37,948 nucleotides of DNA from Campylobacteraceae bacterium (GTDB taxonomy: Bacteria; Campylobacterota; Campylobacteria; Campylobacterales; Sulfurovaceae), in assembly GCA_027063325.1 (NCBI GenBank), contig JAMOSA010000233.1:1-37948 (forward strand), in the 5' to 3' direction. The first letter of the stretch is position 1, and each line of letters begins with the position of its first letter. Both the position numbers and the translations under genes were made by a program. Below the pieces are notes generated by a model. It had not been told where the DNA came from. It saw only the letters and a list, made by a program, of their open reading frames with translations, and ran no database searches. Shown one piece after another: positions 1 to 12,479 of this stretch.

Positions 1-443
1 ATAAATTGATATAAATTATCATATAGAGTTGCTGCCCAAACTATAGCTACTATTTGATTAGTACTCTTATCTATTATAGGAACTAACATTAAATCTTTTA
101 TATCTTTATCTATAAGATTATCTATTTTTGGATTATATATAAAACTAGTAACTAAATCATTTACAATAAGAGGTTGTTTATTGTTGATAGACTCTAGTAG
201 TATAGAGTTGTCAATCTCTTTTGGTTTTATAACTCTTTTTGTATCATCATACTCAAGTATTATCTCTTCATCTTTAAATATTAGTTTTACAACATATACT
301 ACATCAGCAGGTGTAAACTCTTTAATTTTATTTCTACAATCTATAAACAACTCTTTTGTACTCTTTTCTTCTTCTAATCTCTTTTCACAATAGATTAGTA
401 TTTGTTGAAATTTATCTTCATTTAAATCAGTTATTAGCCCCAT
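1..443 (-). CDS. 5' part of a probable GAF-domain protein, running off the window edge (not in the supplied ORF track)
   Basis: ATG at 443 preceded by AAGGA. Open frame MGLITDLNEDKF...KQPLIVNDLVTSFIYNPKID...IKDLMLVPIIDKSTNQIVAIVWA to base 1; the PLIVND/LMLVPII pattern is GAF-like. Confidence 0.6.
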   Translation of the reverse strand, partial: MGLITDLNEDKFQQILIYCEKRLEEEKSTKELFIDCRNKIKEFTPADVVYVVKLIFKDEEIILEYDDTKRVIKPKEIDNSILLESINNKQPLIVNDLVTSFIYNPKIDNLIDKDIKDLMLVPIIDKSTNQIVAIVWAATLYDNLYQF

Positions 444-744
444 CCTTAAAATCCTTTTATAGGTTTCAAAATTTATTAATATTATATTACATATTTTATA
501 TGTTACTTATATATGATCCTATCATACAATAATGTATGTATTGCTTGATTTTATCATAGTAATTAAGAATAATAACTAATTTGGTTTAATAAAATTTATT
601 GATAATCTATATATCGCTATAGGATTGATTTTTAGTTAGCACTATTTCAAAAGGCTTTATCAAGCTCTTTTGGATAAAATCCGATTTGATTTCCTTTGTC
701 TTTTTGCAAAGAGATGAGTTATAAGTTATGCTCAGGAGCTGTTG

Positions 745-3120
745 ATGATAAGAGTAGTAAAGAGAAATGGGCGAATTGAAGCCCTTGATGTATCTAAGAT
801 CCAAAAATATACTGCAGCAGCAGTAGATGGATTAGATGGTGTTAGTCAAAGTGAATTAGAGGTTGATGCCAAACTCCAATTTCGTGATATGATAAGCTCA
901 CAAGAGATTCAACAGACTCTTATAAAGACTGCTGTGGACAAGATAGATATAGACAGACCCAATTGGACATTTGTAGCAGCTAGACTATTTTTGTATGATA
1001 TATACCATAAAGTGGCAGGTTTTACAGGATATAATCATTTAAGAGATTATTTTATAAAAGGTGAAAAAGAGGGTAGGATTGTACTTGGACTCAAAGATAA
1101 GTATGATTTGGATGATCTAAATGACTATATCAAGCCAGAGAGAGATTTACAATTTACCTATCTTGGAATAAGAACACTATATGATAGATACTTACTCAAA
1201 GACAAAGATGGTAAACCTATAGAGCTTCCACAACATCTCTTTATGGCTGTTGCTATGTTTTTGGCTCAAAATGAGTTTGATTCCCAAACATGGGCAAAGA
1301 AGTTTTATGATATTTTGAGTAAATTTGAAGTAATGGCAGCTACTCCTACTCTTAGTAATGCCAGAACTCCTCGTCATCAGCTTAGTAGTTGTTATATAGG
1401 TTCAACTCCGGACAATATAGAAGGTATCTTTGATGGATACAAAGAGATGGCACTACTATCAAAGTTTGGTGGTGGAATTGGATGGGATTGGAATCAGGTT
1501 CGTGGAATGGGTTCATATATAGATGGACACAAACATGCAGCTGGAGGAGTTATACCATTTTTAAAAATTGCAAATGATGTGGCAATTGCTGTTGATCAGC
1601 TTGGAACCCGCAAAGGGGCAATTGCTGTATATTTGGAGCCTTGGCATATAGATATAAGAGAGTTTTTGGATCTGAAAAAAAACAGTGGAGAAGAAAGAAG
1701 AAGAACTCATGACCTGTTTCCGGCTCTGTGGATAAATGATCTGTTTATGAGAAGAGTTCAAGAGGATTCTACCTGGACTCTTTTTGACCCTTATGAGGTA
1801 CAGGAATTGTCTCAACTGTATGGCAAAGAGTTTGAAAAGAGATATGAAGAGCTAGAAAATGATGATAATATTACCAAAGAGGTAGTATCTGCAAAGGGAC
1901 TTTGGAAAGAGGTACTTAGAAGCTACTTTGAGACTGGCAATCCGTTTTTGTGTTTTAAAGATAGTGCTAACAGAGCCAATCCAAATGGTCACAAAGGTAT
2001 AATTAGAAGTAGTAATCTTTGTACTGAAATTTTTCAAAATACATCTCCAAATCATTACAAAATCAAATTGACTTATGAAGATGGAACTATTGATTATCTG
2101 GAAGAGGATGAAGAGATAAAAGTTGATAATGGGTTGATAAAACCAGCCAAAAAGATTACAGCACTTGATTCACTAAACGGTAAGCGTATATGGATGGTAG
2201 AAAAAGAGGCGAGTGATGGTGAGACAGCAGTATGTAATTTGGCTTCAGTCAATCTATCCAAAATCAATACCCCAGAAGATATCAAAAGAGTAGTCCCTGT
2301 TGCAATTAGAATGCTCGATAATGTAATAGATCTAAATTTCTATCCACTTGCCAAAGTCAAAAAGACAAATATGAAAACAAGAGCTATTGGTCTTGGTGTA
2401 ATGGGTGAAGCTCAAATGTTAGCAGAAGCCAAAATAGAGTGGGGTAGTAGTGAACATTTGCATAAAATAGATGAAGTTATGGAATCAATCAGCTACTATG
2501 CTATAAAAGCTTCAAGCAATCTTGCTATAGAAAAGGGTTCATATCCACTATTTGAAGGTTCAGATTGGTCAAAAGGTATTTTGCCAATTGACAAAGCAAA
2601 TAAAGATGCCTGTAAATTGGTTGATAGAGGTGGATTGTTTGGTTATACCCATGATTGGATGAAGCTTAGAGAAAAAGTCAAAAAAGATGGTATGAGAAAT
2701 GGTTATCTGATGGCAATAGCACCAACAAGCTCTATATCAATACTTGTAGGCACTACTCAAGCTATTGAACCTGTATATAAGAGAAAGTGGTTTGAAGAGA
2801 ATTTGAGTGGTCTTATTCCTGTAGTTGTCCCTAATCTCTCTCCAGATACTTGGCCATATTATGTATCTAGTTATGAATTAGATCAAAGGATACTTGTTAG
2901 AGCAGCAGCTGTTAGACAAAAGTGGATAGATCAAGGACAGAGTTTAAATATATTTATATCACTTGATAAAGCAAGTGGTAGGTATCTAAATGATATATAT
3001 ATGGAAGCATGGAGATTTGGACTCAAATCTACATACTACCTCAGAAGTCAATCTCCAGAAGCTATAAAAGCAGAAGAGGGGATAGAGGACAGAAGCTTAG
3101 AGTGTGTAGGGTGTCAGTAG
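745..3120 (+). CDS. nrdA: Ribonucleoside-diphosphate reductase class Ia, alpha subunit, with N-terminal ATP cone
   Basis: VVKRNG ATP cone, ATPTLSNA, LSSC, SNLCTEI, AVCNLAS, APTSSIS, KSTYYLRS and a C-terminal CxxC. RBS CAGGAG upstream; TTG at 742 is an alternative start. Confidence 0.97.
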   Translation: MIRVVKRNGRIEALDVSKIQKYTAAAVDGLDGVSQSELEVDAKLQFRDMISSQEIQQTLIKTAVDKIDIDRPNWTFVAARLFLYDIYHKVAGFTGYNHLRDYFIKGEKEGRIVLGLKDKYDLDDLNDYIKPERDLQFTYLGIRTLYDRYLLKDKDGKPIELPQHLFMAVAMFLAQNEFDSQTWAKKFYDILSKFEVMAATPTLSNARTPRHQLSSCYIGSTPDNIEGIFDGYKEMALLSKFGGGIGWDWNQVRGMGSYIDGHKHAAGGVIPFLKIANDVAIAVDQLGTRKGAIAVYLEPWHIDIREFLDLKKNSGEERRRTHDLFPALWINDLFMRRVQEDSTWTLFDPYEVQELSQLYGKEFEKRYEELENDDNITKEVVSAKGLWKEVLRSYFETGNPFLCFKDSANRANPNGHKGIIRSSNLCTEIFQNTSPNHYKIKLTYEDGTIDYLEEDEEIKVDNGLIKPAKKITALDSLNGKRIWMVEKEASDGETAVCNLASVNLSKINTPEDIKRVVPVAIRMLDNVIDLNFYPLAKVKKTNMKTRAIGLGVMGEAQMLAEAKIEWGSSEHLHKIDEVMESISYYAIKASSNLAIEKGSYPLFEGSDWSKGILPIDKANKDACKLVDRGGLFGYTHDWMKLREKVKKDGMRNGYLMAIAPTSSISILVGTTQAIEPVYKRKWFEENLSGLIPVVVPNLSPDTWPYYVSSYELDQRILVRAAAVRQKWIDQGQSLNIFISLDKASGRYLNDIYMEAWRFGLKSTYYLRSQSPEAIKAEEGIEDRSLECVGCQ

Positions 3121-4715
3121 GATTTACAGGGTGATATAAAGTGAAACTCTCTGCCGTCAAACAACCCTTTATCACTCAACTTTATCTCCGGAATTACAAG
3201 CAGAGCCATAAATGATAGTGTCATAAATGGTGCTGATAGATTTGAACCTAACTCCTCTTTGACAAAAGAGTCAATCTCTTGGTATCTTTTGGCTACTTCA
3301 TACGCTTCAAGAGTACTCATAATACCAGCTATCTCAAGAGGTAATATATAGCTTTTGTTTTTGCCAATAGCTGCTATTGCACCTTTACTTTTTATAACCA
3401 AATTTGCTACTTCTGCCATCTCCTCATCACTACAACCTACTACTACAATATTGTGTGAATCATGTGCTACACTTGAAGCAATTGCTCCATATTTCAATCC
3501 AAAGCCACTGATATGGGCTATACCTTTTATAGGTGTATTCTCATATCTATTTATTACAGCAATCTTTAAAACATCACTACTTTTGTTTGGTGTTAAAATC
3601 TTCTCATAAGTCATTAGTTGATGATCTATAGCTTGAATAACTTCTATCTCTTTACACTCAGGTAGATAGAAATCATTGGCACTTTTTGGTGATGTATTGA
3701 AATTGTTTGGTCTATCGCTTTTGATATAAGGAAGCAGACTTTTAGATTCTTTTGCTACCAAATTACCATCTATAAATACTTTTAGTATATTAAACTCTTT
3801 TAGATTGTCTATCTCTATAAAATCTGCCCTATCACCTACTCTTAGCAATCCAACTGGTAAGTTATAGTGTTTTACAGGGTTGTATGAAGCTATCTTTAGT
3901 ATATCAAATAGATTATATCCCAATCTAAGAGATCTTTTTACAAGTTCATTTATATGACCCTTTACCAAATCATCTGGGTGTTTATCATCACTACAAAACA
4001 TAACCATATCTGTATTAGTAGCTATCAATGGGTGCAGAGCTTCAAAATTTTTGGCGGCTGATCCTTCTCGAATAAGGATTTTCATACCCAAATTTATCTT
4101 CTCTTTTGCCTCTTTTAGTGTAAAAGCTTCATGATCTGTAGATATACCTGCATCTATATATTTTTTTAGATCTTCTCCACTAAGTGCTGGTGCATGACCA
4201 TCTATTGGAACTTTTGCTCTTTTGGCTATCTCAATCTTTGTAAGCATATCTTTATCACCTGCTACAACTCCTGGAAAATTCATAACTTCACTAAGGTACC
4301 CTATACCATCTTTGGATAGAAGATACTCTATATCTTTAGGAGTCAAGGTAGCACCACTTGTCTCAAATGGTGTAGCAGGTACACAAGGAGATGCCCCAAA
4401 TAGTACTTTTAGAGGAGTCTTTGAAGCATTTGCAATCATAAATTCCACACCCTCAATACCAAGTACATTGGCAATCTCATGAGGATCTGAAACTGTGGCT
4501 ATTGTACCATGTGGTATAGCCAATCTGCTAAATTCATATGGAGGCAACATAGAGCTTTCTATATGTATATGTGCATCTACAAATCCTGGTAGTATATATG
4601 TAGAGTACTCTTTATTAGTAGGTGTTATAGATACAATAAATCCATCTTCAATCTCAATAGATGCCGGATATATATCACAAGAGTGAATATCTATCAAGTT
4701 TGCTTCTATATTCAT
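3114..4715 (-). CDS. ade: Adenine deaminase (AdeC-type amidohydrolase)
   Basis: PGFVDAHIHIESS, DPHEIANV, EVMNFPGV, DGHAP, TDHE, REGSAAKN, SDDKHP, SVAHDSHN and LALLVIPE-like motifs. Confidence 0.95.
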   Translation of the reverse strand: MNIEANLIDIHSCDIYPASIEIEDGFIVSITPTNKEYSTYILPGFVDAHIHIESSMLPPYEFSRLAIPHGTIATVSDPHEIANVLGIEGVEFMIANASKTPLKVLFGASPCVPATPFETSGATLTPKDIEYLLSKDGIGYLSEVMNFPGVVAGDKDMLTKIEIAKRAKVPIDGHAPALSGEDLKKYIDAGISTDHEAFTLKEAKEKINLGMKILIREGSAAKNFEALHPLIATNTDMVMFCSDDKHPDDLVKGHINELVKRSLRLGYNLFDILKIASYNPVKHYNLPVGLLRVGDRADFIEIDNLKEFNILKVFIDGNLVAKESKSLLPYIKSDRPNNFNTSPKSANDFYLPECKEIEVIQAIDHQLMTYEKILTPNKSSDVLKIAVINRYENTPIKGIAHISGFGLKYGAIASSVAHDSHNIVVVGCSDEEMAEVANLVIKSKGAIAAIGKNKSYILPLEIAGIMSTLEAYEVAKRYQEIDSFVKEELGSNLSAPFMTLSFMALLVIPEIKLSDKGLFDGREFHFISPCKSY

Positions 4716-5464
4716 AATAAACTCCTGTTATACTCTTTTAGTACATTCCAATTCTCTTTAAATTTTGCAATTTTAGAGATGTTTATATTTTTACACTCAT
4801 CATCACTTAATTTGTCAGCCCAATACATAGGTATAATATAACATATTCCAACCTGCTTATCCACAGCAACATATATATCACAATCTTTTGATGTGATCCT
4901 TTTTCCTATATTTCTTTGATGATGATGATCAATTCCTTGACCACCTCTGTTTCTATCTTTGAAACTTATTGTATTGCCTGTAGAAATGCCTTTGATTTGA
5001 ATACGCAAAAGTTTACCTTCAAAATCTACAATTGCATCATAACGGCTACTTCTAACATCTACACTACTTGCATTAAATCCAGCAAGTATTGCTCGTGCTA
5101 CAAAAATAAACTCTGCACTATCTCCAGCATTTGCAGTCATTATTCCACTGTCTATATGGTTGATGTTTGTACTCCAACCATTATTTAAAGCAATATATAG
5201 AGATTTTTGAAGTATTTTTTTGAGATCTGTTTTAATAAATTCAAATTCTTTGATAAGCAGATCATCATCTAAGTAGTTTTTAATTATCTCTATATTTTTA
5301 TCTGCTAATTCTAAAAGATCTACTTTATTAGCAATGTCTTTAAAAAAAACTGATAAATAATATCTTTTTAGATCACTCTCTTTAAGATCAAACTTTTGTG
5401 CAATCTCTTTTATGCACTTTTTCTTAAAGCCACATTTTTTGAGTTCATTGATAAATTTGCACAT
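4712..5464 (-). CDS. Putative type II restriction endonuclease, PD-(D/E)XK family
   Basis: AGDSAE...SSRYDAIVD...RIQIKG catalytic pattern; lies immediately downstream of, and overlaps, a C5 methyltransferase. Confidence 0.75.
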   Translation of the reverse strand: MCKFINELKKCGFKKKCIKEIAQKFDLKESDLKRYYLSVFFKDIANKVDLLELADKNIEIIKNYLDDDLLIKEFEFIKTDLKKILQKSLYIALNNGWSTNINHIDSGIMTANAGDSAEFIFVARAILAGFNASSVDVRSSRYDAIVDFEGKLLRIQIKGISTGNTISFKDRNRGGQGIDHHHQRNIGKRITSKDCDIYVAVDKQVGICYIIPMYWADKLSDDECKNINISKIAKFKENWNVLKEYNRSLL

Positions 5465-6381
5465 TCAAAAGCCTTTAGTATCTCTTTTGCAATAGCTTCA
5501 ATAACAGGTACAGTAACAGAGTTGCCAATCTGTTTATATCTATGAGACAAAGCTAAATCTTCTGGAAAAATTATCTCATCAAAACCTTGAAACTTTGCAC
5601 ACTCATCAGGTGTTAATTTTCTAATATCTTTACTATCTATTATAAGTGGTACATTGTGTCCACCAGTTCCCATATTTGCTGTAAGAGTAGGGCAGAGATT
5701 AGATTTGTTTTCTCTTACATAAACACGCCTCCATTGATATATAGTATCTCTGTTTTTCATCTCTTCTTTTAACTGTTTGTAATATTTACTGTTGTGATAA
5801 TAAAATCTATCTTCAGCAGTAGGTTCTATAATATCGTGTATAGTTTGAATAATTTTTTTTGGTTTTGGAAAATTAAAGCTATCAAAAGCTTTCTTGTTCT
5901 TAAAAGCAACTATATATATTCTCTCTCTATTTTGTGGTAGATAATCGCAACTGTTTATTACTTTGTCTTTTATATAATATCCACGATCTTCAAGGCTTTT
6001 TTTGATAACTTTAAAAGTATTTCCTTTATCGTGACTTTTTAGATTTTTTACATTTTCCAAAAATACCACTTGAGGTTCTATTGCATCTATAAATCTTAAA
6101 ATTTCAAAATATACATTACCACGATCATCATCAAAGCCTTTTTGATAACCAGCAATTGAAAAGGCTTGACAGGGAAATCCGGCAGTTAAAACATCTACCT
6201 TTTCAACTTCTTTTTCATTCAACTCTTTTATATCACACTCATATAGTGTATGCTGATAATTTAACCTATATGTTTTACAGGCATTTTTATCTATCTCATT
6301 AGCCCAAAGTATCTCAAAACCTGCCTTTTTAAATCCAAGTTCTATTCCGCCAATTCCCGCAAAAAGACCAGCAACAGTCAT
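5410..6381 (-). CDS. DNA (cytosine-5)-methyltransferase, M.Bsp6I-like (GCNGC group)
   Basis: FAGIGG, GFPCQ, ENV, QNRER and YKQIGNSV motifs. TRD YQWRRVYVRENKSNLCPTLTANMGTGGHNVP closely resembles M.Bsp6I as I recall it. Confidence 0.92.
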   Translation of the reverse strand: MTVAGLFAGIGGIELGFKKAGFEILWANEIDKNACKTYRLNYQHTLYECDIKELNEKEVEKVDVLTAGFPCQAFSIAGYQKGFDDDRGNVYFEILRFIDAIEPQVVFLENVKNLKSHDKGNTFKVIKKSLEDRGYYIKDKVINSCDYLPQNRERIYIVAFKNKKAFDSFNFPKPKKIIQTIHDIIEPTAEDRFYYHNSKYYKQLKEEMKNRDTIYQWRRVYVRENKSNLCPTLTANMGTGGHNVPLIIDSKDIRKLTPDECAKFQGFDEIIFPEDLALSHRYKQIGNSVTVPVIEAIAKEILKAFECANLSMNSKNVALRKSA

Positions 6382-6882: not shown

Positions 6883-6975
6883 TGTTTATTCCTCTATTTA
6901 TAAAAAGTAGTATAATTATATTGCATTGACTTCTTAGTGAGTCATATTAGCATATTTTATCAAAAAGGTTTTATA

Positions 6976-7539
6976 ATGACGCGACCTGTACCAATAGATG
7001 AAGAGATAATTCTTGATCCCAAAAGGTATATAGTGAGCAAGACAGATCCAAAAGGGGTCATAGAGTATGGTAATGATTATTTTGTGGAGATTAGTGGATA
7101 TACAGAGACAGAGTTGATAGGAACACCACACAATATTATTAGACACCCTGATATGCCAAAGATTGTCTTTAAGATGATGTGGGATCGAATCAAAAACAGA
7201 CAAAATATAATGGCAGTAGTAAAAAATCTTGCAAAAGATGGTAGATACTATTGGGTTGTAACAGAATTTGAAACAAAAGTTGATCCAATAACTAATGAGA
7301 TAGTAGGATATACTGCATTTAGAAAAGCAGCTCCAAGAGAAGCTATAGAGGCTATTGAACCACTCTATAAAAAACTTGTAGAGATAGAAAAAGTTGGAGG
7401 AATGGAGGCTTCTGAGAAGTATCTAAGAGGGATATTCGAAGAAAAAAGAGTAAGTTATGATGAGTATATCAATGATATAGTAGGTAATAAAGGTATATTC
7501 AAAGCCTTTTTCAAAATTATGAAAAAGATGTTTGGATAG
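6976..7539 (+). CDS. Stand-alone Aer/CetB-like PAS domain protein
   Basis: IVSKTDPKGVIEYGNDYFVEISGY, PHNIIRHPDMP and KNLAKDGRYYWV motifs. ATG at 6976 follows AAAGG, so it is preferred to the 6937 start. Confidence 0.88.
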   Translation: MTRPVPIDEEIILDPKRYIVSKTDPKGVIEYGNDYFVEISGYTETELIGTPHNIIRHPDMPKIVFKMMWDRIKNRQNIMAVVKNLAKDGRYYWVVTEFETKVDPITNEIVGYTAFRKAAPREAIEAIEPLYKKLVEIEKVGGMEASEKYLRGIFEEKRVSYDEYINDIVGNKGIFKAFFKIMKKMFG

Positions 7540-7544
7540 TATAG

Positions 7545-8306
7545 ATGAACAAAAGTATTCGTAGATATAAAGTAGTAGATACCAGTGATGGTTCTGCTAC
7601 TTTATACTCCAAAGAGTTTGATGAGTGTTATCACTCTACAAAAGATGGAGCATTGAGTGAATCACTATACAAACATATAATACCAGCTTTTAATTTGGTT
7701 GGAGATAGAGATAAATTAGTAATACTTGATATATGTTTTGGGCTAGGTTACAATACCTTAGCAACACTCTATTATATAAAAGAGCATAATATAGATATAG
7801 AAGTGGAGATAGTATCTCCGGAGATGGATAGAGAATTGGTAGCTTTGTTATCTAACTTTGATTATCCAAAAGAGTTTGAATATTTACAAGATACTATAGA
7901 CTCTTTGGCAAAATATGGAAAATATGAAAATAATAGATACAAAATAGATATACACTTTGCAGATGCACGCCAAATTTTGCCAAAATTGTCTCAAAAATTT
8001 GATATAGTCTATCAAGATGCTTTTAGTCCCAAAAAAAATCCTCTGCTTTGGACAAAAGAGTACTTTAAAGATGTAGCAAATCTCATAAAACCAGATGGTA
8101 TTATTACTACCTATTCAAGTGCAACACCAGTTAGAATGAGTCTTTATGAGAATGGATTTAATATATACACACATCCAAAAGGGAGTGTTAGAGAGGGTAC
8201 AATAGCCTCTTTTGCTACACTAAATCTACCTGCTGTTGATATGGAATTAAAAAAACAGAGAAATCCTCAAGCCAATGCACTCTTTGATAGTGAATTTATA
8301 TACTGA
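7545..8306 (+). CDS. mnmD: tRNA mnm5s2U34 methyltransferase (stand-alone MnmC methyltransferase domain)
   Basis: TSDGSATLYS, YHS..GAL.ES, ICFGLGYN, QDAFSPKKNP.LWT and TTYS motifs. Confidence 0.88.
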   Translation: MNKSIRRYKVVDTSDGSATLYSKEFDECYHSTKDGALSESLYKHIIPAFNLVGDRDKLVILDICFGLGYNTLATLYYIKEHNIDIEVEIVSPEMDRELVALLSNFDYPKEFEYLQDTIDSLAKYGKYENNRYKIDIHFADARQILPKLSQKFDIVYQDAFSPKKNPLLWTKEYFKDVANLIKPDGIITTYSSATPVRMSLYENGFNIYTHPKGSVREGTIASFATLNLPAVDMELKKQRNPQANALFDSEFIY

Positions 8307-8748
8307 TCTTACGCACATTTCAATCTTTGCGACTTATTGTATGCAATTTTGTTAGCTTTTATTAACAATTTCATTTTTAAAGCAAAGTGATTTAGATAAT
8401 GGCTACTATAAACTCTTTATTTTTGTTTGCAATATATTCAGAATTTTCAGTGGATGCAAACCATATATCCATTAATACATATTTAAACTTTAAATTATTA
8501 GCTATTACTACATAAAATATATCTTTTGATGTAAACTCACTATTTTTTAAAAATCTTGTAATTTGATCGTGACTTACTTCATTATCTAAATGTCGCTGTT
8601 GCATAACCAAATTGACTTATTAGAAAATCTGTATATAAATCAATGTACTCATTTGTTTTTCTTGCTTTCTCTTCTGGTTTTTTTGCAATCTAGCTCTCCA
8701 TTAAATCTTTCTTATTATAGCTTAACTTTTGCTTATATGTAAGGTCAG
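8303..8748 (-). pseudogene. Internally deleted IS701-like (DDE) transposase remnant 1, both termini present
   Basis: Frameshifted blocks IDLYTDFLISQFGYATAT / LDNEVSHDQITRFL / FKYVLMDIWFASTEN / LNHFALKMKLLIKANKIAY...CA*. Ends are CTGATCTTACGCA and a decayed TATGTAAGGTCAG (8736-8748). Confidence 0.8.
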
Positions 8749-8767
8749 CTGATAAATTATAGCGACA

Positions 8768-8829
8768 ATATAACTACCGACTTTACCGATATGTTTACCT
8801 GTTCGGTGCTAGGTTTTGTTTTGTTAGAT
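8768..8829 (-). other. Decayed integron attC-like recombination site
   Basis: Minus strand: ATCTAAC-AAAAC(AAAAC)-CTAGCACC-GA...TC-GGTAAAG-TCGGTA-GTTATAT. The R'' box contains the endonuclease stop codon, and spacers are the canonical 5 and 6 nt once one AAAAC copy is removed. Confidence 0.55.
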
Positions 8830-8987
8830 GTACTTTTCAAAAGGTTTAACAAATGCTTTAAAATATTGCAAACATGTTTGTCAAATGGTTCTCCTACTGT
8901 ATGACCTGAAAGTGTTTCTGATATTGGTTTTGGAATTTTTGTTCCAATTAACTCTTTAACTAATTTATCATATATTGTTTGTTCCAT
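8824..8987 (-). pseudogene. HincII-type restriction endonuclease with a large internal deletion
   Basis: N-terminus IYDKLVKELIGTKIPKPISETLSGHTVGEPFDKHV resembles the R.HincII start. It is fused out of frame to FVKPFEKYI*, which resembles the R.HincII C-terminus. Confidence 0.8.
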
Positions 8988-8990
8988 AAC

Positions 8991-10574
8991 TCACCCTTTA
9001 AATAATTTATCAATTTCTAAGTTTAATTTATTTATGTTTGAATAATCTTGTATAGTTTTTTTAGATAATTCTACAATTTTATTATGTAATAATACTTCTT
9101 TTTCATTATCCCAATTTATCTTTCTAAATGGAATACTAGCAATTGGTTTTTCAGAGAACTCAACTATATTTCCTTTTCTTACTCCATTGTTTATAAGCCA
9201 ATCAAATACTCTTTTATTGTTTAATAAAGCTAATATATAATAAATACTTTCTTTAATGTTATCTTTTTTAAAAAGTGCCGTTACATCTTGAGTAGGATAT
9301 AAATTTTTATCTATCAATGCAAATCTAAAATAATCTTTGTTTGATATTCTTTCTTTACAAGGAACAAATATTCTTTTTTTATTTTTAGAAAATAGATTAT
9401 AGTTTCTTAAAAATACCCATTCCCAATAAGGAATATTTCTGTTATAGTTATATCTTTTTTCAAGTTTTGATTTAAATGGTAATAGATGATTATAAAAATT
9501 TGGAAAGTTATTTTTTAGTTCTTCTTCATCTTTAATATTTAATAAAAATATATAGTATGTAATATTTGTATAACTAAATGGTTTTAAATCTTTAGCTTTG
9601 ATAACCTTTAAAATATGCTTTTTTTCATTTTTATTTAAGTGTTGAATATCTTGAATTTGAAAGGCTTTATCCAATCCACTTACCATTCCATTACCAATAT
9701 CACAAATATCTCCTATAGTATGGAATTTATCTGTTTCAAAATCAAATAAAGATGTTTGATGACTTTTGATTAAACAATATTGTTCAAATATTTTTAGTTC
9801 ATTTTTAATTTCATTAGAAGTTAGTAACCATCTTTTATTTTCTTCAAATTGCTCAATATTAAGATAAGTTGTGTTTTTTTGTTCTATTTGGTTTTGAATA
9901 TTATTTATAATTTCACTAGTTAATTTACGATTAGCATAATATTTAGTTAATTTTATTTTTGAGTTGTTTTTTTTATTTGATTTTATATATTTAAAAATTA
10001 TTGTAGAAACAGTAGCTTTATCAAAAATAGGTGTTTCATTAAAATGAATAATTTCTTCAAAATATCCATTTTTTACCATATAGTTACGAAGATTTAAAGA
10101 ATGTTTTGTATTTAACCAATATTCTGGTGTAATAAATATTAATTCTCCTCCATCTTTTAGTAACTCAATAGATTTTAGTATAAAAATATATGAATAATCA
10201 CATAAACTATTAAAATATTTATTCCATAAAATACTTTCATTTAGTTCTTCTTTTAGTTCTTCTTCTAAATTTTTCCATCTAATATAAGGTGGATTTCCTA
10301 TTATTAAATCAAATTTTTTGTCAATTTTTGCAGTTACAAAACTTTCATTTATAACATTTGGTATATTGCGAGATAATATTTCATCAATTTCATAACCTAT
10401 AATATTTTTAAATCCTTTATTTTTGAGATTTTCAATAAAAATACCTTTACCACATGATGGTTCTAATATAAGAGCATCTTTATCAACTTTTGATAAAGAA
10501 ATCATTAAATCAACAATTAATTTAGGAGTAAAATATTGACCAAATTTATTTTTAACTGATATAGGTTTTGTCAA
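8991..10574 (-). CDS. N6-adenine DNA methyltransferase, gamma class (Eco57I/TaqI-like fold), probably M.HincII-like (GTYRAC)
   Basis: GQYFTP, LEPSCGKGIF and IGNPPY motifs in gamma order; intact 527 aa with TTG start after AAGG; directly upstream of the HincII-like endonuclease relic. Confidence 0.88.
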   Translation of the reverse strand: MTKPISVKNKFGQYFTPKLIVDLMISLSKVDKDALILEPSCGKGIFIENLKNKGFKNIIGYEIDEILSRNIPNVINESFVTAKIDKKFDLIIGNPPYIRWKNLEEELKEELNESILWNKYFNSLCDYSYIFILKSIELLKDGGELIFITPEYWLNTKHSLNLRNYMVKNGYFEEIIHFNETPIFDKATVSTIIFKYIKSNKKNNSKIKLTKYYANRKLTSEIINNIQNQIEQKNTTYLNIEQFEENKRWLLTSNEIKNELKIFEQYCLIKSHQTSLFDFETDKFHTIGDICDIGNGMVSGLDKAFQIQDIQHLNKNEKKHILKVIKAKDLKPFSYTNITYYIFLLNIKDEEELKNNFPNFYNHLLPFKSKLEKRYNYNRNIPYWEWVFLRNYNLFSKNKKRIFVPCKERISNKDYFRFALIDKNLYPTQDVTALFKKDNIKESIYYILALLNNKRVFDWLINNGVRKGNIVEFSEKPIASIPFRKINWDNEKEVLLHNKIVELSKKTIQDYSNINKLNLEIDKLFKG

Positions 10575-10669
10575 TTTTAATTACCTTTTGTATATATAAT
10601 GTATTTTGTATAACTATATATAACTATTTATTATAAGAGATTGTATCCCATACACCCTTAAAGACACTA

Positions 10670-10887
10670 TTAGCAAATGATTTGATTGGGTTCTTACTAT
10701 TTTTGTAAGAGATTTTCATATAATTGTGTAGTTTCTTTTTTTTTCATTATCAATTCTAATCTCTATTTTGAAGAAAACCAGCTATCCATTAACACATATT
10801 TAAATCAAATTCATCATTTGATAAAAATTTTGTTATTTGGTCATGGCTTAACTCTTCTATTATTTTACCACAACTGCGTAAGGTCAG
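10670..10887 (-). pseudogene. Internally deleted IS701-like transposase remnant 2 (left end retained, inner boundary approximate)
   Basis: Starts CTGACCTTACGCA, then blocks EELSHDQITKFLSNDEF / FKYVLMDSWFSSK* / KSLTKIVRTQSNH. No matching right end found. Confidence 0.75.
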
Positions 10888-10973
10888 TTATATAATCTAA
10901 AAGGCTTCATTTTTGAGTTTTGAATAATAAGATTATATCTACATAATACTAATTTATTAAAAATTATATATTT

Positions 10974-10982
10974 GGCTATAAT
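10974..10982 (+). promoter_or_regulatory. Probable sigma70 -10 box for sqr
   Basis: GGCTATAAT about 28 nt upstream of the ATG, followed by an AGGAG RBS. Confidence 0.45.
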
Positions 10983-11009
10983 AAAATTATCACATATCAG
11001 GAGCAGACT

Positions 11010-12479
11010 ATGGCACAGGTTGTAGTAATGGGAGGAGGTGTAGCAGGGCATACTGCTGCTACATTTCTCAAAAATTGGTTGGGTAAAGAGCATGAGGTAA
11101 TAGTAGTTACTCCAAATAGTCAATGGAATTGGATACCCTCTAATATATGGGTAGGTGTGGGCAGAATGAAAAAAGAGGATGTTGTATTTCCTTTGGCACC
11201 TATTTATAATGAAGCTGGTATTGTCTATAAACAGGCAAAAGCAGTTGCTATATATCCAGAGGGATCATATGAGGTATCAAAGCCATATATTACTATTGAA
11301 TATACATCCAAAGATAAAAAAGGACAAGAGGAGATAGTTGAGTATGACTATTTGATAAATGCTACTGGTCCAAAGTTGAATTTTGGAGCTACTGAGGGGC
11401 TTGGTATAGATAGTCAAATTGGTGAATATACAGTATCTGTATGTACAGCCGAACATGCCAAAGAGGCAAATGAGAAGCTTAAAGATATATTTGAAAAAGC
11501 CAAAAATGGTAAAACCCAAAAGATATTGGTCGGAACTGGACATGGGACATGTACATGTCAAGGTGCTGCTTTTGAGTATATACTAAATATTGAGCATGAA
11601 GCAAGAAGATTTGGTATTAGAGACAATTTGGAGATTAAGTGGATCTCAAATGAACCATATCTGGGTGATTTTGGTATGGATGGTATGCATCTTGGTAGTA
11701 TGGGTTATGTGATGAGTTCAAAACTTCTTGGTGAATCTCTATTTGCAGAAAGAGGAATACCTTGGATACTCAATGCACATACAAGCAAAGTAGAAGAGGG
11801 TAGATTGGAGTATGAGCTTATAGATGGTTCAAAAGGGAGCGAAGAGTTTGATTTTGCTATGCTTATACCTCCATTTAAGGGTGTAGATTTAGAGGCATTT
11901 GATAAAGATGGTAATGATATAAGAGATAAACTGTTTTTGCCAAATGGATTTATGAGAGTTGATGCAGAGTATGAGCCAAAACCTTATGAAGAGTGGAAAG
12001 CGAGTGATTGGCCAAGTACCTATCAAAATCCTTATTACAAAAATATATTTGCAGCTGGTATTGCATTTGCTCCACCTCATCCAATATCCAAACCAAGAAA
12101 ATCACCAAATGGTACAGTAATTACTCCTGCTCCGCCAAGAACAGGTATGCCAGCAGGTACTATTGGCAAAGCAGTTGCACACTCTATTGCAAACAAAATA
12201 AAGTATGGAGAGAGTGGCAAACTAAGGGCTATCTCAATGGCACAGATGGGTTCAATTTGTGTAGCATCAGCAGGAGTTGGATTTAAATCTGGTCAAGCTA
12301 TATCATTTACTGTATATCCTCTTGTAAAAGATTTTGAGAAATATCCAGGAACAGGTAGAGATACAAGTAGAACTTATGGTGAGATTGGAGTATCTGGACA
12401 CTGGTTGAAGTTGGCACTTCACTATATGTTTATATACAAAGCCAAATTAAAGCCGGGTTGGACACTTATACCAGAATAA
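11010..12479 (+). CDS. sqr: Sulfide:quinone oxidoreductase, type IV (SqrD/SqrX-like)
   Basis: GGGVAG FAD motif, WNWIPSNIWVGVG, SVCTA, CTCQGAAFEY, PPRTGMP, CVASAG and C-terminal KLKPGWTLIPE. Confidence 0.88.
   Translation: MAQVVVMGGGVAGHTAATFLKNWLGKEHEVIVVTPNSQWNWIPSNIWVGVGRMKKEDVVFPLAPIYNEAGIVYKQAKAVAIYPEGSYEVSKPYITIEYTSKDKKGQEEIVEYDYLINATGPKLNFGATEGLGIDSQIGEYTVSVCTAEHAKEANEKLKDIFEKAKNGKTQKILVGTGHGTCTCQGAAFEYILNIEHEARRFGIRDNLEIKWISNEPYLGDFGMDGMHLGSMGYVMSSKLLGESLFAERGIPWILNAHTSKVEEGRLEYELIDGSKGSEEFDFAMLIPPFKGVDLEAFDKDGNDIRDKLFLPNGFMRVDAEYEPKPYEEWKASDWPSTYQNPYYKNIFAAGIAFAPPHPISKPRKSPNGTVITPAPPRTGMPAGTIGKAVAHSIANKIKYGESGKLRAISMAQMGSICVASAGVGFKSGQAISFTVYPLVKDFEKYPGTGRDTSRTYGEIGVSGHWLKLALHYMFIYKAKLKPGWTLIPE

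What the first reader, a model, noticed from the sequence alone, without database searches (positions are those of the whole stretch)
8296..10894. Fossil composite transposon with a 7-bp target duplication inserted at the mnmD stop codon
Seen: outer ends CTGATCTTACGCA and TGCGTAAGGTCAG, each abutted by TTATATA. Removing the element plus one repeat gives GAA TTT ATA TAA, which restores a stop for mnmD. The present TGA stop (8304-8306) is supplied by the IS end. The inner ends are decayed (8736-8748) or missing while the outer ends are intact. Inference: the 2585-bp unit moved as one piece and might still be mobilised in trans. A 7-bp repeat is longer than usually quoted for IS701-family elements, and the flanks are AT-rich, so some chance of coincidence remains.
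Basis: partly seen in the sequence, partly recalled or inferred. Interest (0 to 1): 0.72.

Follow-up and report, generated by a model that had tools for sequence, protein, structure and literature searches.

The report
Insertion sequences moved an integron cassette
Two decayed insertion sequences enclose a 2.6-kb block holding a likely integron attachment site and a restriction-modification cassette, and a 7-base repeat of the length typical for these elements indicates that the block likely jumped as one piece into the stop codon of a tRNA-modifying gene; it is a tidy environmental variant of a known way of moving integron pieces.

Summary
All coordinates are confirmed. The 7-bp repeat is normal for this IS701-family subgroup: 13 of 46 near-full-length copies have an exact 7- or 8-bp duplication (0.9 expected by chance; none has 5 or 6 bp), with target consensus TTAnTAA. 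Unrelated ends match over 7 bp only 1-2% of the time, so one insertion event is likely, though no empty site was found. It is an integron piece without integrase: an attI-like site, one cassette (adenine methyltransferase plus HincII-type endonuclease) ended by an attC site, and 25 bp of the next cassette cut by the inner IS end. The endonuclease has lost about 600 bp internally; contigs from another study run on past that junction, so a longer allele probably segregates. The flanking remnants come from two IS isoforms (72-75% alike where they overlap), so this is not a textbook composite. No intact transposase or integrase was found in the assembly, so mobility today is untested. mnmD gains one residue. 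Verdict: a new variant of a known kind, of modest interest.

The parts
7545..8306 (+). Stand-alone MnmC2/MnmD-like tRNA methyltransferase, 253 aa; last codon and stop come partly from the IS end (EFIY* now, EFI* predicted before insertion)
   Evidence: PF05430 E 3e-26; NF033855 114.7 bits, below its cut-off of 136; frame; 19 homologs end at about the same place
8296..8302 (.). Left copy of the 7-bp target duplication TTATATA
   Evidence: fits consensus TTAnTAA at 4 of 6 fixed positions read inward
8303..8748 (-). Left IS701-family remnant, 446 bp, both ends present (outer right end 8303-8315 exact, inner left end 8736-8748 with 2 mismatches); keeps about nt 50-200, 517-628 and 1017-1111 of an intact 1.1-kb element
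8749..8773 (-). 25-bp stub of the next cassette, cut by the inner IS end; not found elsewhere in the assembly
8768..8829 (-). attC-type site: ATCTAAC (8829-8823) ... GTTATAT (8774-8768); carries a 5-nt duplication next to the first box; the endonuclease's original stop is the TAA of the first box
8824..8987 (-). HincII-type endonuclease gene with about 600 bp deleted at a 7-nt overlap (8848-8854): 164 nt against 768 nt in the closest full homolog
   Evidence: PF09226; PDB HincII E 2.5e-6
8991..10574 (-). Open 527-aa adenine DNA methyltransferase (Eco57I/N6_Mtase domains, GNPPY at residue 93), TTG start, 20.8% GC
   Evidence: partner of the HincII-type gene in 59 of 84 homologous loci
10617..10675 (-). 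attI-like site ending AATAAATAG|TT (predicted crossover 10624/10623), fused directly to the right IS remnant; no integrase gene beside it
10677..10887 (-). Right IS701-family remnant: intact outer left end (10875-10887), three internal patches, no right end; 94-97% identical in patches to the broken copy on G000 contig C262
10888..10894 (.). Right copy of the 7-bp target duplication TTATATA

Best explanation
The 2585-bp block is a low-GC integron fragment (likely attI site, one restriction-modification cassette with its attC, and the stub of a second cassette) that was likely cut out of an integron by the outer ends of two different IS701-family elements and pasted as one unit into TTATATA at the mnmD stop codon. 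Inferred order: (1) one IS701 isoform inserted between intI and attI, another 25 bp into the second cassette, in the same orientation. (2) A family transposase paired the outer left end of one with the outer right end of the other and inserted the unit, duplicating 7 bp and leaving intI behind. (3) Deletions removed most transposase sequence and, in this strain, most of the endonuclease; their timing relative to step 2 is unknown. The result is predicted to be an orphan methyltransferase, probably for GTYRAC by homology to HincII. Shown: the anatomy, the family's 7-8-bp duplications, the cassette structure, the deletions. Inferred: single-step transposition, the donor integron, methyltransferase activity and specificity.
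For: 13 of 46 near-full-length copies carry exact 7- or 8-bp repeats against 0.9 expected; 6 of 14 paired ends in family genomes likewise; 2 of 2 group copies fetched from RefSeq plasmids have 7 bp. Chance match between unrelated ends is 1.0-1.9%. The left remnant's own inner flank does not repeat its outer flank (5 of 7 mismatches). The outer ends belong to different isoforms: the right remnant is 94-97% like the C262 copy, the left outer end only 69% like C64, which shares sequence with C262. attC: homologs in other genomes keep the core and diverge right after GTT; they share a bottom-strand hairpin; in G422 the same endonuclease ends in the same site. attI: the same motif lies about 240 bp from a divergent, over-cut-off integron integrase in G022 and G008, and in G022 heads an array with two matching attC sites. 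Unit 23% GC against 33.6% for the genome.
Against: No empty site was seen. 33 of the 46 copies have no exact 7/8-bp repeat, and 27 of the 46 come from two genomes, so the counts are not independent. The target consensus makes chance matches about 1-2%, not negligible. The window's attC does not fold better than shuffles (z -0.32) and covariation in the alignment is weak (1 of 16 pairs with a two-sided change). Only 2 of 8 other attI-like sites examined have an intact integrase beside them. No donor scar, intact transposase or integrase was found in the assembly.
Confidence: 0.78

Rival explanations
1. The two IS remnants arrived or rearranged independently, and the matching heptamers are a coincidence of their shared AT-rich target preference; the integron piece came to lie between them through IS-driven deletions or recombination.
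For: Strong target consensus TTAnTAA; 33 of 46 near-full-length copies have unmatched flanks, so rearrangement is common; the genome holds many decayed ends; no empty site seen.
Against: Exact match expected in only 1.0-1.9% of unrelated pairs, and about 0.6% for this heptamer by the position matrix; the reconstructed site gives a stop where homologs end.
Confidence: 0.1
2. One IS inserted alone at the mnmD stop and made the duplication; a circle carrying the integron piece and a second IS then recombined into it, in the manner of IS26 translocatable units (recalled), leaving the old duplication outside.
For: It also gives two directly oriented IS copies and a kept duplication; run X2 shows extra C262-type IS sequence joined to the left remnant, so the locus keeps collecting IS DNA.
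Against: It predicts that the two outer ends belong to the same isoform; they do not (right end C262-type, left end 69% to C64). The two isoforms are only 72-75% alike in the overlapping patches.
Confidence: 0.09
3. The junctions are an assembly chimera made at repeated IS ends.
For: Metagenome assembly in 347 contigs with 3.4% contamination; no listed contig spans the whole stretch.
Against: Both junctions lie inside X1 contigs with no differences, overlapping pieces tile 6900-12471, and the left junction recurs in X2 from another study.
Confidence: 0.03

Closest known systems
MITE-integron-MITE and IMU-integron-IMU units of class 1 integrons (review PMC3575428, passages read)
   Same: Transposase-less IS-derived flanks around an integron piece, a duplication at the outer ends, and dependence on a transposase in trans.
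   Different: There the flanks are identical copies (439-bp MITE, 288-bp IMU) around class 1 integrons; here they are two different deleted IS701 isoforms around a chromosomal-type attI plus first cassette, with no integrase gene and a defence cargo.
Classical composite transposons (definition in PMC3575428)
   Same: Cargo between two directly oriented IS, outer ends intact, short duplication outside.
   Different: The two IS are not the same element and neither is intact.
IS701 family, NCBIfam NF049921 group; ISAba11 as nearest named element seen
   Same: DDE transposase over the NF049921 cut-off; about 1.1 kb with 13-bp ends sharing the core CTTACGCA with ISAba11.
   Different: 7-8-bp duplication, against 4 bp in PMC2266710, 5-6 bp for ISAba11 and 4-9 bp for ISGka1/2; transposase only 21% identical to ISAba11; ends lack the YACT signature of PMC2266710.
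CALIN/SALIN integron fragments (PMC4889954, passages; bioRxiv 2024.07.02.601686, passages)
   Same: attC cassette without a neighbouring integrase; IS-made rearrangement is a proposed origin (38% of CALIN have a neighbouring IS); type II restriction systems are reported as cassettes.
   Different: One attC only, with the attI-like site kept, and a target duplication that marks relocation by transposition.
HincII restriction-modification system
   Same: The full homolog of the endonuclease matches PDB HincII end to end, E 3e-108; methyltransferase upstream.
   Different: Endonuclease deleted internally in this genome; specificity not tested.

Membership tests
IS701 family (source of the ends) | Transposase scores in an IS701 model | tested here: met
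   Intact relative with the same ends (L033) scores 347 bits on NF049921, cut-off 250; window remnants align to it in four and three patches
IS701 family (source of the ends) | 4-bp duplication and YACT end signature (PMC2266710, table 1) | tested here: not met
   7-8 bp in 13 of 46; 4-bp matches at the chance rate; ends start CTGA. Other IS701 members also depart from 4 bp, so this marks a subgroup
Classical composite transposon | Same IS on both sides | tested here: not met
   Remnants 72-75% identical where they overlap
Classical composite transposon | At least one intact IS copy | tested here: not met
   446 bp and about 210 bp left of about 1100; two of three predicted catalytic segments (residues near 71 and 274) missing from both
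Classical composite transposon | Target duplication at the outer ends | tested here: met
   TTATATA on both sides, of the group's usual length
Classical composite transposon | Empty site in a relative | tested here: inconclusive
   Not found; conspecific contigs carry the unit or do not cover the place, and no mnmD-sqr adjacency was found in the congener loci examined
MITE/IMU-flanked integron | Identical non-coding miniature elements on both sides | tested here: not met
   Different remnants; the right one lacks its inner end
MITE/IMU-flanked integron | Movement when a transposase is supplied in trans | not testable with these tools
   Needs a transposition assay
Integron gene cassette | Gene(s) followed by attC with RYYYAAC ... 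GTTRRRY boxes | tested here: met
   ATCTAAC exact, GTTATAT one mismatch; conservation ends at GTT in homologs; consensus motifs recalled
Integron gene cassette | Bottom-strand hairpin of attC | tested here: inconclusive
   Consensus hairpin across 15 copies, mostly invariant pairs; the window's copy alone z -0.32
Complete integron | intI beside attI | tested here: not met
   No TIGR02249 match over cut-off in G000; the two loci hit are 278-279-aa XerC/D-like proteins
Complete integron | attI recombines with attC under IntI | not testable with these tools
   attI identity rests on position and motif in G022 and G008
Functional HincII-type RM system | Intact endonuclease gene | tested here: not met
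   164 of about 768 nt left

The most novel reading that the evidence does not exclude
This IS701 subgroup works as a general courier in Campylobacterota: its 13-bp ends, even from different isoforms, pick up attI with the first cassette and seed integrase-free attI platforms around the chromosome, which an integrase acting in trans could still load. That would explain the solo attI-like sites seen in relatives (6 of 8 examined) and give a route from cassette-borne restriction systems to orphan methyltransferases.
Probability: 0.15. Interest if true: 0.55.

Novelty: new variant of a known kind. Interest (0 to 1): 0.35.

Why it matters
It is a sequence-level record of a step proposed for the origin of integrase-free cassette clusters: IS ends lifting attI and a cassette out of a chromosomal integron in an environmental bacterium, the same logic that mobilised clinical integrons. 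It also gives a usable signature for an IS701 subgroup (ends CTGAYSTTACGCA, target TTAn(n)TAA, 7-8-bp duplication) and shows a restriction system apparently losing its nuclease within a population. None of this overturns known biology.

Tried and rejected
Reading the 7-mer as a 5-bp duplication plus one extra end base: rejected, since 6 of the 13 exact repeats have non-complementary first and last bases. Empty-site searches: exact 23-nt left flank in JGI metagenomes, 0 hits, and near records may be left out; contigs of six runs, no joint skipping 8303-10894 among those listed, tables cut; mnmD loci of 19 relatives with 1.5-kb flanks had no sqr; 4 sqr loci of three congeners had no mnmD. Integrase in the own genome: only XerC/D-like hits. 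Intact transposase in the own genome: C262 copy frameshifted and truncated, C64 a 3' part, C102 another DDE type cut by a contig end. Donor scar for the 25-bp stub: none at up to 5 mismatches. Promoter scan: 22 sites against 24.5 expected, uninformative. Other cargo units between these IS ends around methyltransferase, attC or attI homologs: none among loci L146-L291. The five weakest attC hits (L157-L161) and most attI hits lack the motifs and were treated as noise. Literature searches listed no paper whose title or abstract start describes this IS subgroup's 7-8-bp duplication or an IS-moved attI-cassette unit in this phylum; ISfinder could not be queried, and the end alignments in supplement 8 of PMC2266710 are pictures that gave no text.

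Full report
Observation. The window is contig C233 of G000, a 1.74-Mb, 347-contig assembly of 33.6% GC; its best-matching run is a hydrothermal vent metagenome. That the host is a Campylobacterota is my inference from gene content and from the record titles of close transposases. The unit runs 8303-10887, is 23% GC, and is bracketed by TTATATA. The IS end supplies the TGA of the mnmD-like gene, which gains one tyrosine; 19 homologs end at about the same place, so the gene is probably unharmed.

The IS. The 13-bp end occurs exactly in 28 of 151 family genomes, with one match in all for the reversed control. One locus (L033) holds a 1105-bp element with a 351-aa transposase that passes the IS701 model NF049921. 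With it I fetched 80 loci. I examined the 61 with long matches; 12 lacked a recognisable end and 3 had flanks that were too short, leaving 46. Exact repeats: 8 of 46 at 7 bp, 5 of 46 at 8 bp, none at 5, 6, 9 or 10 bp, and 3- and 4-bp matches at the chance rate; 0.9 exact 7/8-bp matches were expected. The 13 come from six genomes; 27 of the 46 come from two genomes, and 33 have no exact repeat, which I put down to recombination between copies or assembly (not tested). Six of 14 paired ends in family genomes also have 7 or 8 bp, and so do two copies on RefSeq plasmids, whereas an ISAba11 copy has 5 bp. Across 162 distinct ends the flank reads TTAnTAA, and unrelated ends match over 7 bp in 1.0% of pairs (1.9%). 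So the repeat has the right length and is unlikely to be chance. In print: IS701 4 bp (PMC2266710, passages), ISAba11 13-bp ends with 6 bp (PMC7519801, passages) or 5 bp (bioRxiv 2020.10.08.331108, passages), ISGka1/2 4-9 bp (PMC8024623, passages).

The two flanks. Both point the same way (minus strand). The left remnant keeps both ends and three patches of an intact element; the right keeps its outer end and three patches and is fused to cargo at about 10677. They are 72-75% alike where they overlap; the right is 94-97% like a broken copy on C262, the left outer end 69% like C64 and 75% like C266. The outer ends therefore come from different isoforms, which fits joint transposition better than recombination into one resident IS. 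No intact transposase of this group was found in the assembly; repeats are often unassembled, so this is not absence.

The cargo. A 527-aa adenine methyltransferase is followed by the start of a HincII-type endonuclease. The pair occurs together in 59 of 84 homologous loci and the methyltransferase in 5 of 401 genomes of the order, the own genome included. The closest full endonuclease is 255 aa and matches HincII end to end; the window keeps 164 of about 768 nt, joined at a 7-nt overlap. Behind it lies a repeat matched in 16 of 150 other family genomes (the five weakest hits lack the motif). Its copies begin near YAAC, end at GTT and diverge outside, and 15 aligned copies share a bottom-strand hairpin with unpaired bases: an attC site by the recalled consensus. 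In G422 the same endonuclease ends in the same site. The window's copy has a 5-nt duplication and folds no better than shuffles, so it may be impaired. Upstream of the methyltransferase is a motif ending AATAAATAG|TT. In G022 and G008 it lies about 240 bp from a divergent integrase above the TIGR02249 cut-off, and in G022 it heads an array with two matching attC sites. That is the position of attI. Six other copies examined have no intact integrase in the 1.2-9 kb upstream, among them one on G000 C164 with a weak integrase N-terminal trace (E 0.005). G000 has no integrase over the cut-off.

Population evidence. Runs X2, X3 and X5 are from one other study. X2 carries the left junction. X2 and X3 contigs stop matching at the endonuclease junction and run on in other letters (417, 79 and 203 nt), as an undeleted gene would; I did not see those letters. 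An X5 contig at depth 2 spans the deletion. An X2 contig joins C262-type IS sequence to the left remnant at 8386 and carries the C262 base at 10829, which I read as a further IS insertion. No empty site was listed in six runs, and the tables were cut.

Mechanism. Two IS701 isoforms likely landed either side of attI plus cassette 1; a family transposase likely moved the block by its outer ends, leaving intI behind; deletions then eroded the transposase genes and the nuclease. Confidence 0.78; rivals are coincidence (0.10), recombination into a resident IS (0.09) and chimera (0.03).

Comparison. It works like the MITE- and IMU-flanked class 1 integrons and like composite transposons (PMC3575428, passages) but fails their membership tests: the flanks are not the same element and neither is intact. 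IS-made integron fragments are a proposed origin of CALINs (PMC4889954, passages), type II restriction cassettes are known (bioRxiv 2024.07.02.601686, passages), and transposon-like restriction units were surveyed in PMC2853133 (passages). My searches (listings only, apart from the papers named) showed no description of this subgroup's 7-8-bp duplication, but ISfinder was not available and may hold named members. Earlier scan notes held nothing for this genome and one analogous IS701 composite elsewhere (unchecked).

Verdict. Real and well formed; a new variant of a known kind; interest 0.35.

Noticed in passing
L030-L056 (family genomes); G000 C19:4964-5015, C86:1845-1916: The same 13-bp ends enclose many tiny elements of 42-236 bp whose interiors look unrelated to the transposase and sometimes share other palindromic repeats; 6 of 14 pairs have exact 7-8-bp duplications. 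The ends appear to carry arbitrary filler.
   Followed up: partly
L142 (G000:C164) 1-3830: A second attI-like site (about 3100-3220, minus strand) heads a 364-aa unknown protein and a 426-aa C5 methyltransferase-like protein, downstream of gltX and a XerC/D-like gene, with only a weak integrase trace upstream.
   Followed up: partly
L144 (G000:C263) 1-900: Cassette array at a contig end: gene, attC (333-390), 64-aa ORF, a second possible attC ending near 725, then an IS with different ends (CTGACATTCCCCA) inserted just after its GTT. Possible relic of the donor array.
   Followed up: partly
G000 whole genome: GTMKAC hexamers are almost absent (observed/expected 0.01-0.13) and the other GTYRAC hexamers are about halved (0.46-0.51), while most other GTNNAC words are near 1; suggests long exposure to AccI-like and HincII-like enzymes (names recalled).
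   Followed up: partly
window 4712-6381: A second restriction-modification pair (C5 methyltransferase plus PD-(D/E)XK nuclease) lies 2 kb upstream, outside the unit.
   Followed up: no
window 10609-10623: A 10-nt tandem repeat at the attI crossover; one X2 contig (depth 4.3) lacks 10 nt here (table 4).
   Followed up: no
window 10895-10950: An X2 contig stops matching at 10951 with 32 other letters, so the spacer upstream of sqr may differ between strains.
   Followed up: no
L077-L123 (two complete chromosomes): Most IS copies in these two genomes have unmatched flanks, and one copy's left flank equals another's right flank (L118 with L102 and L115), as expected from recombination between copies.
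   Followed up: no
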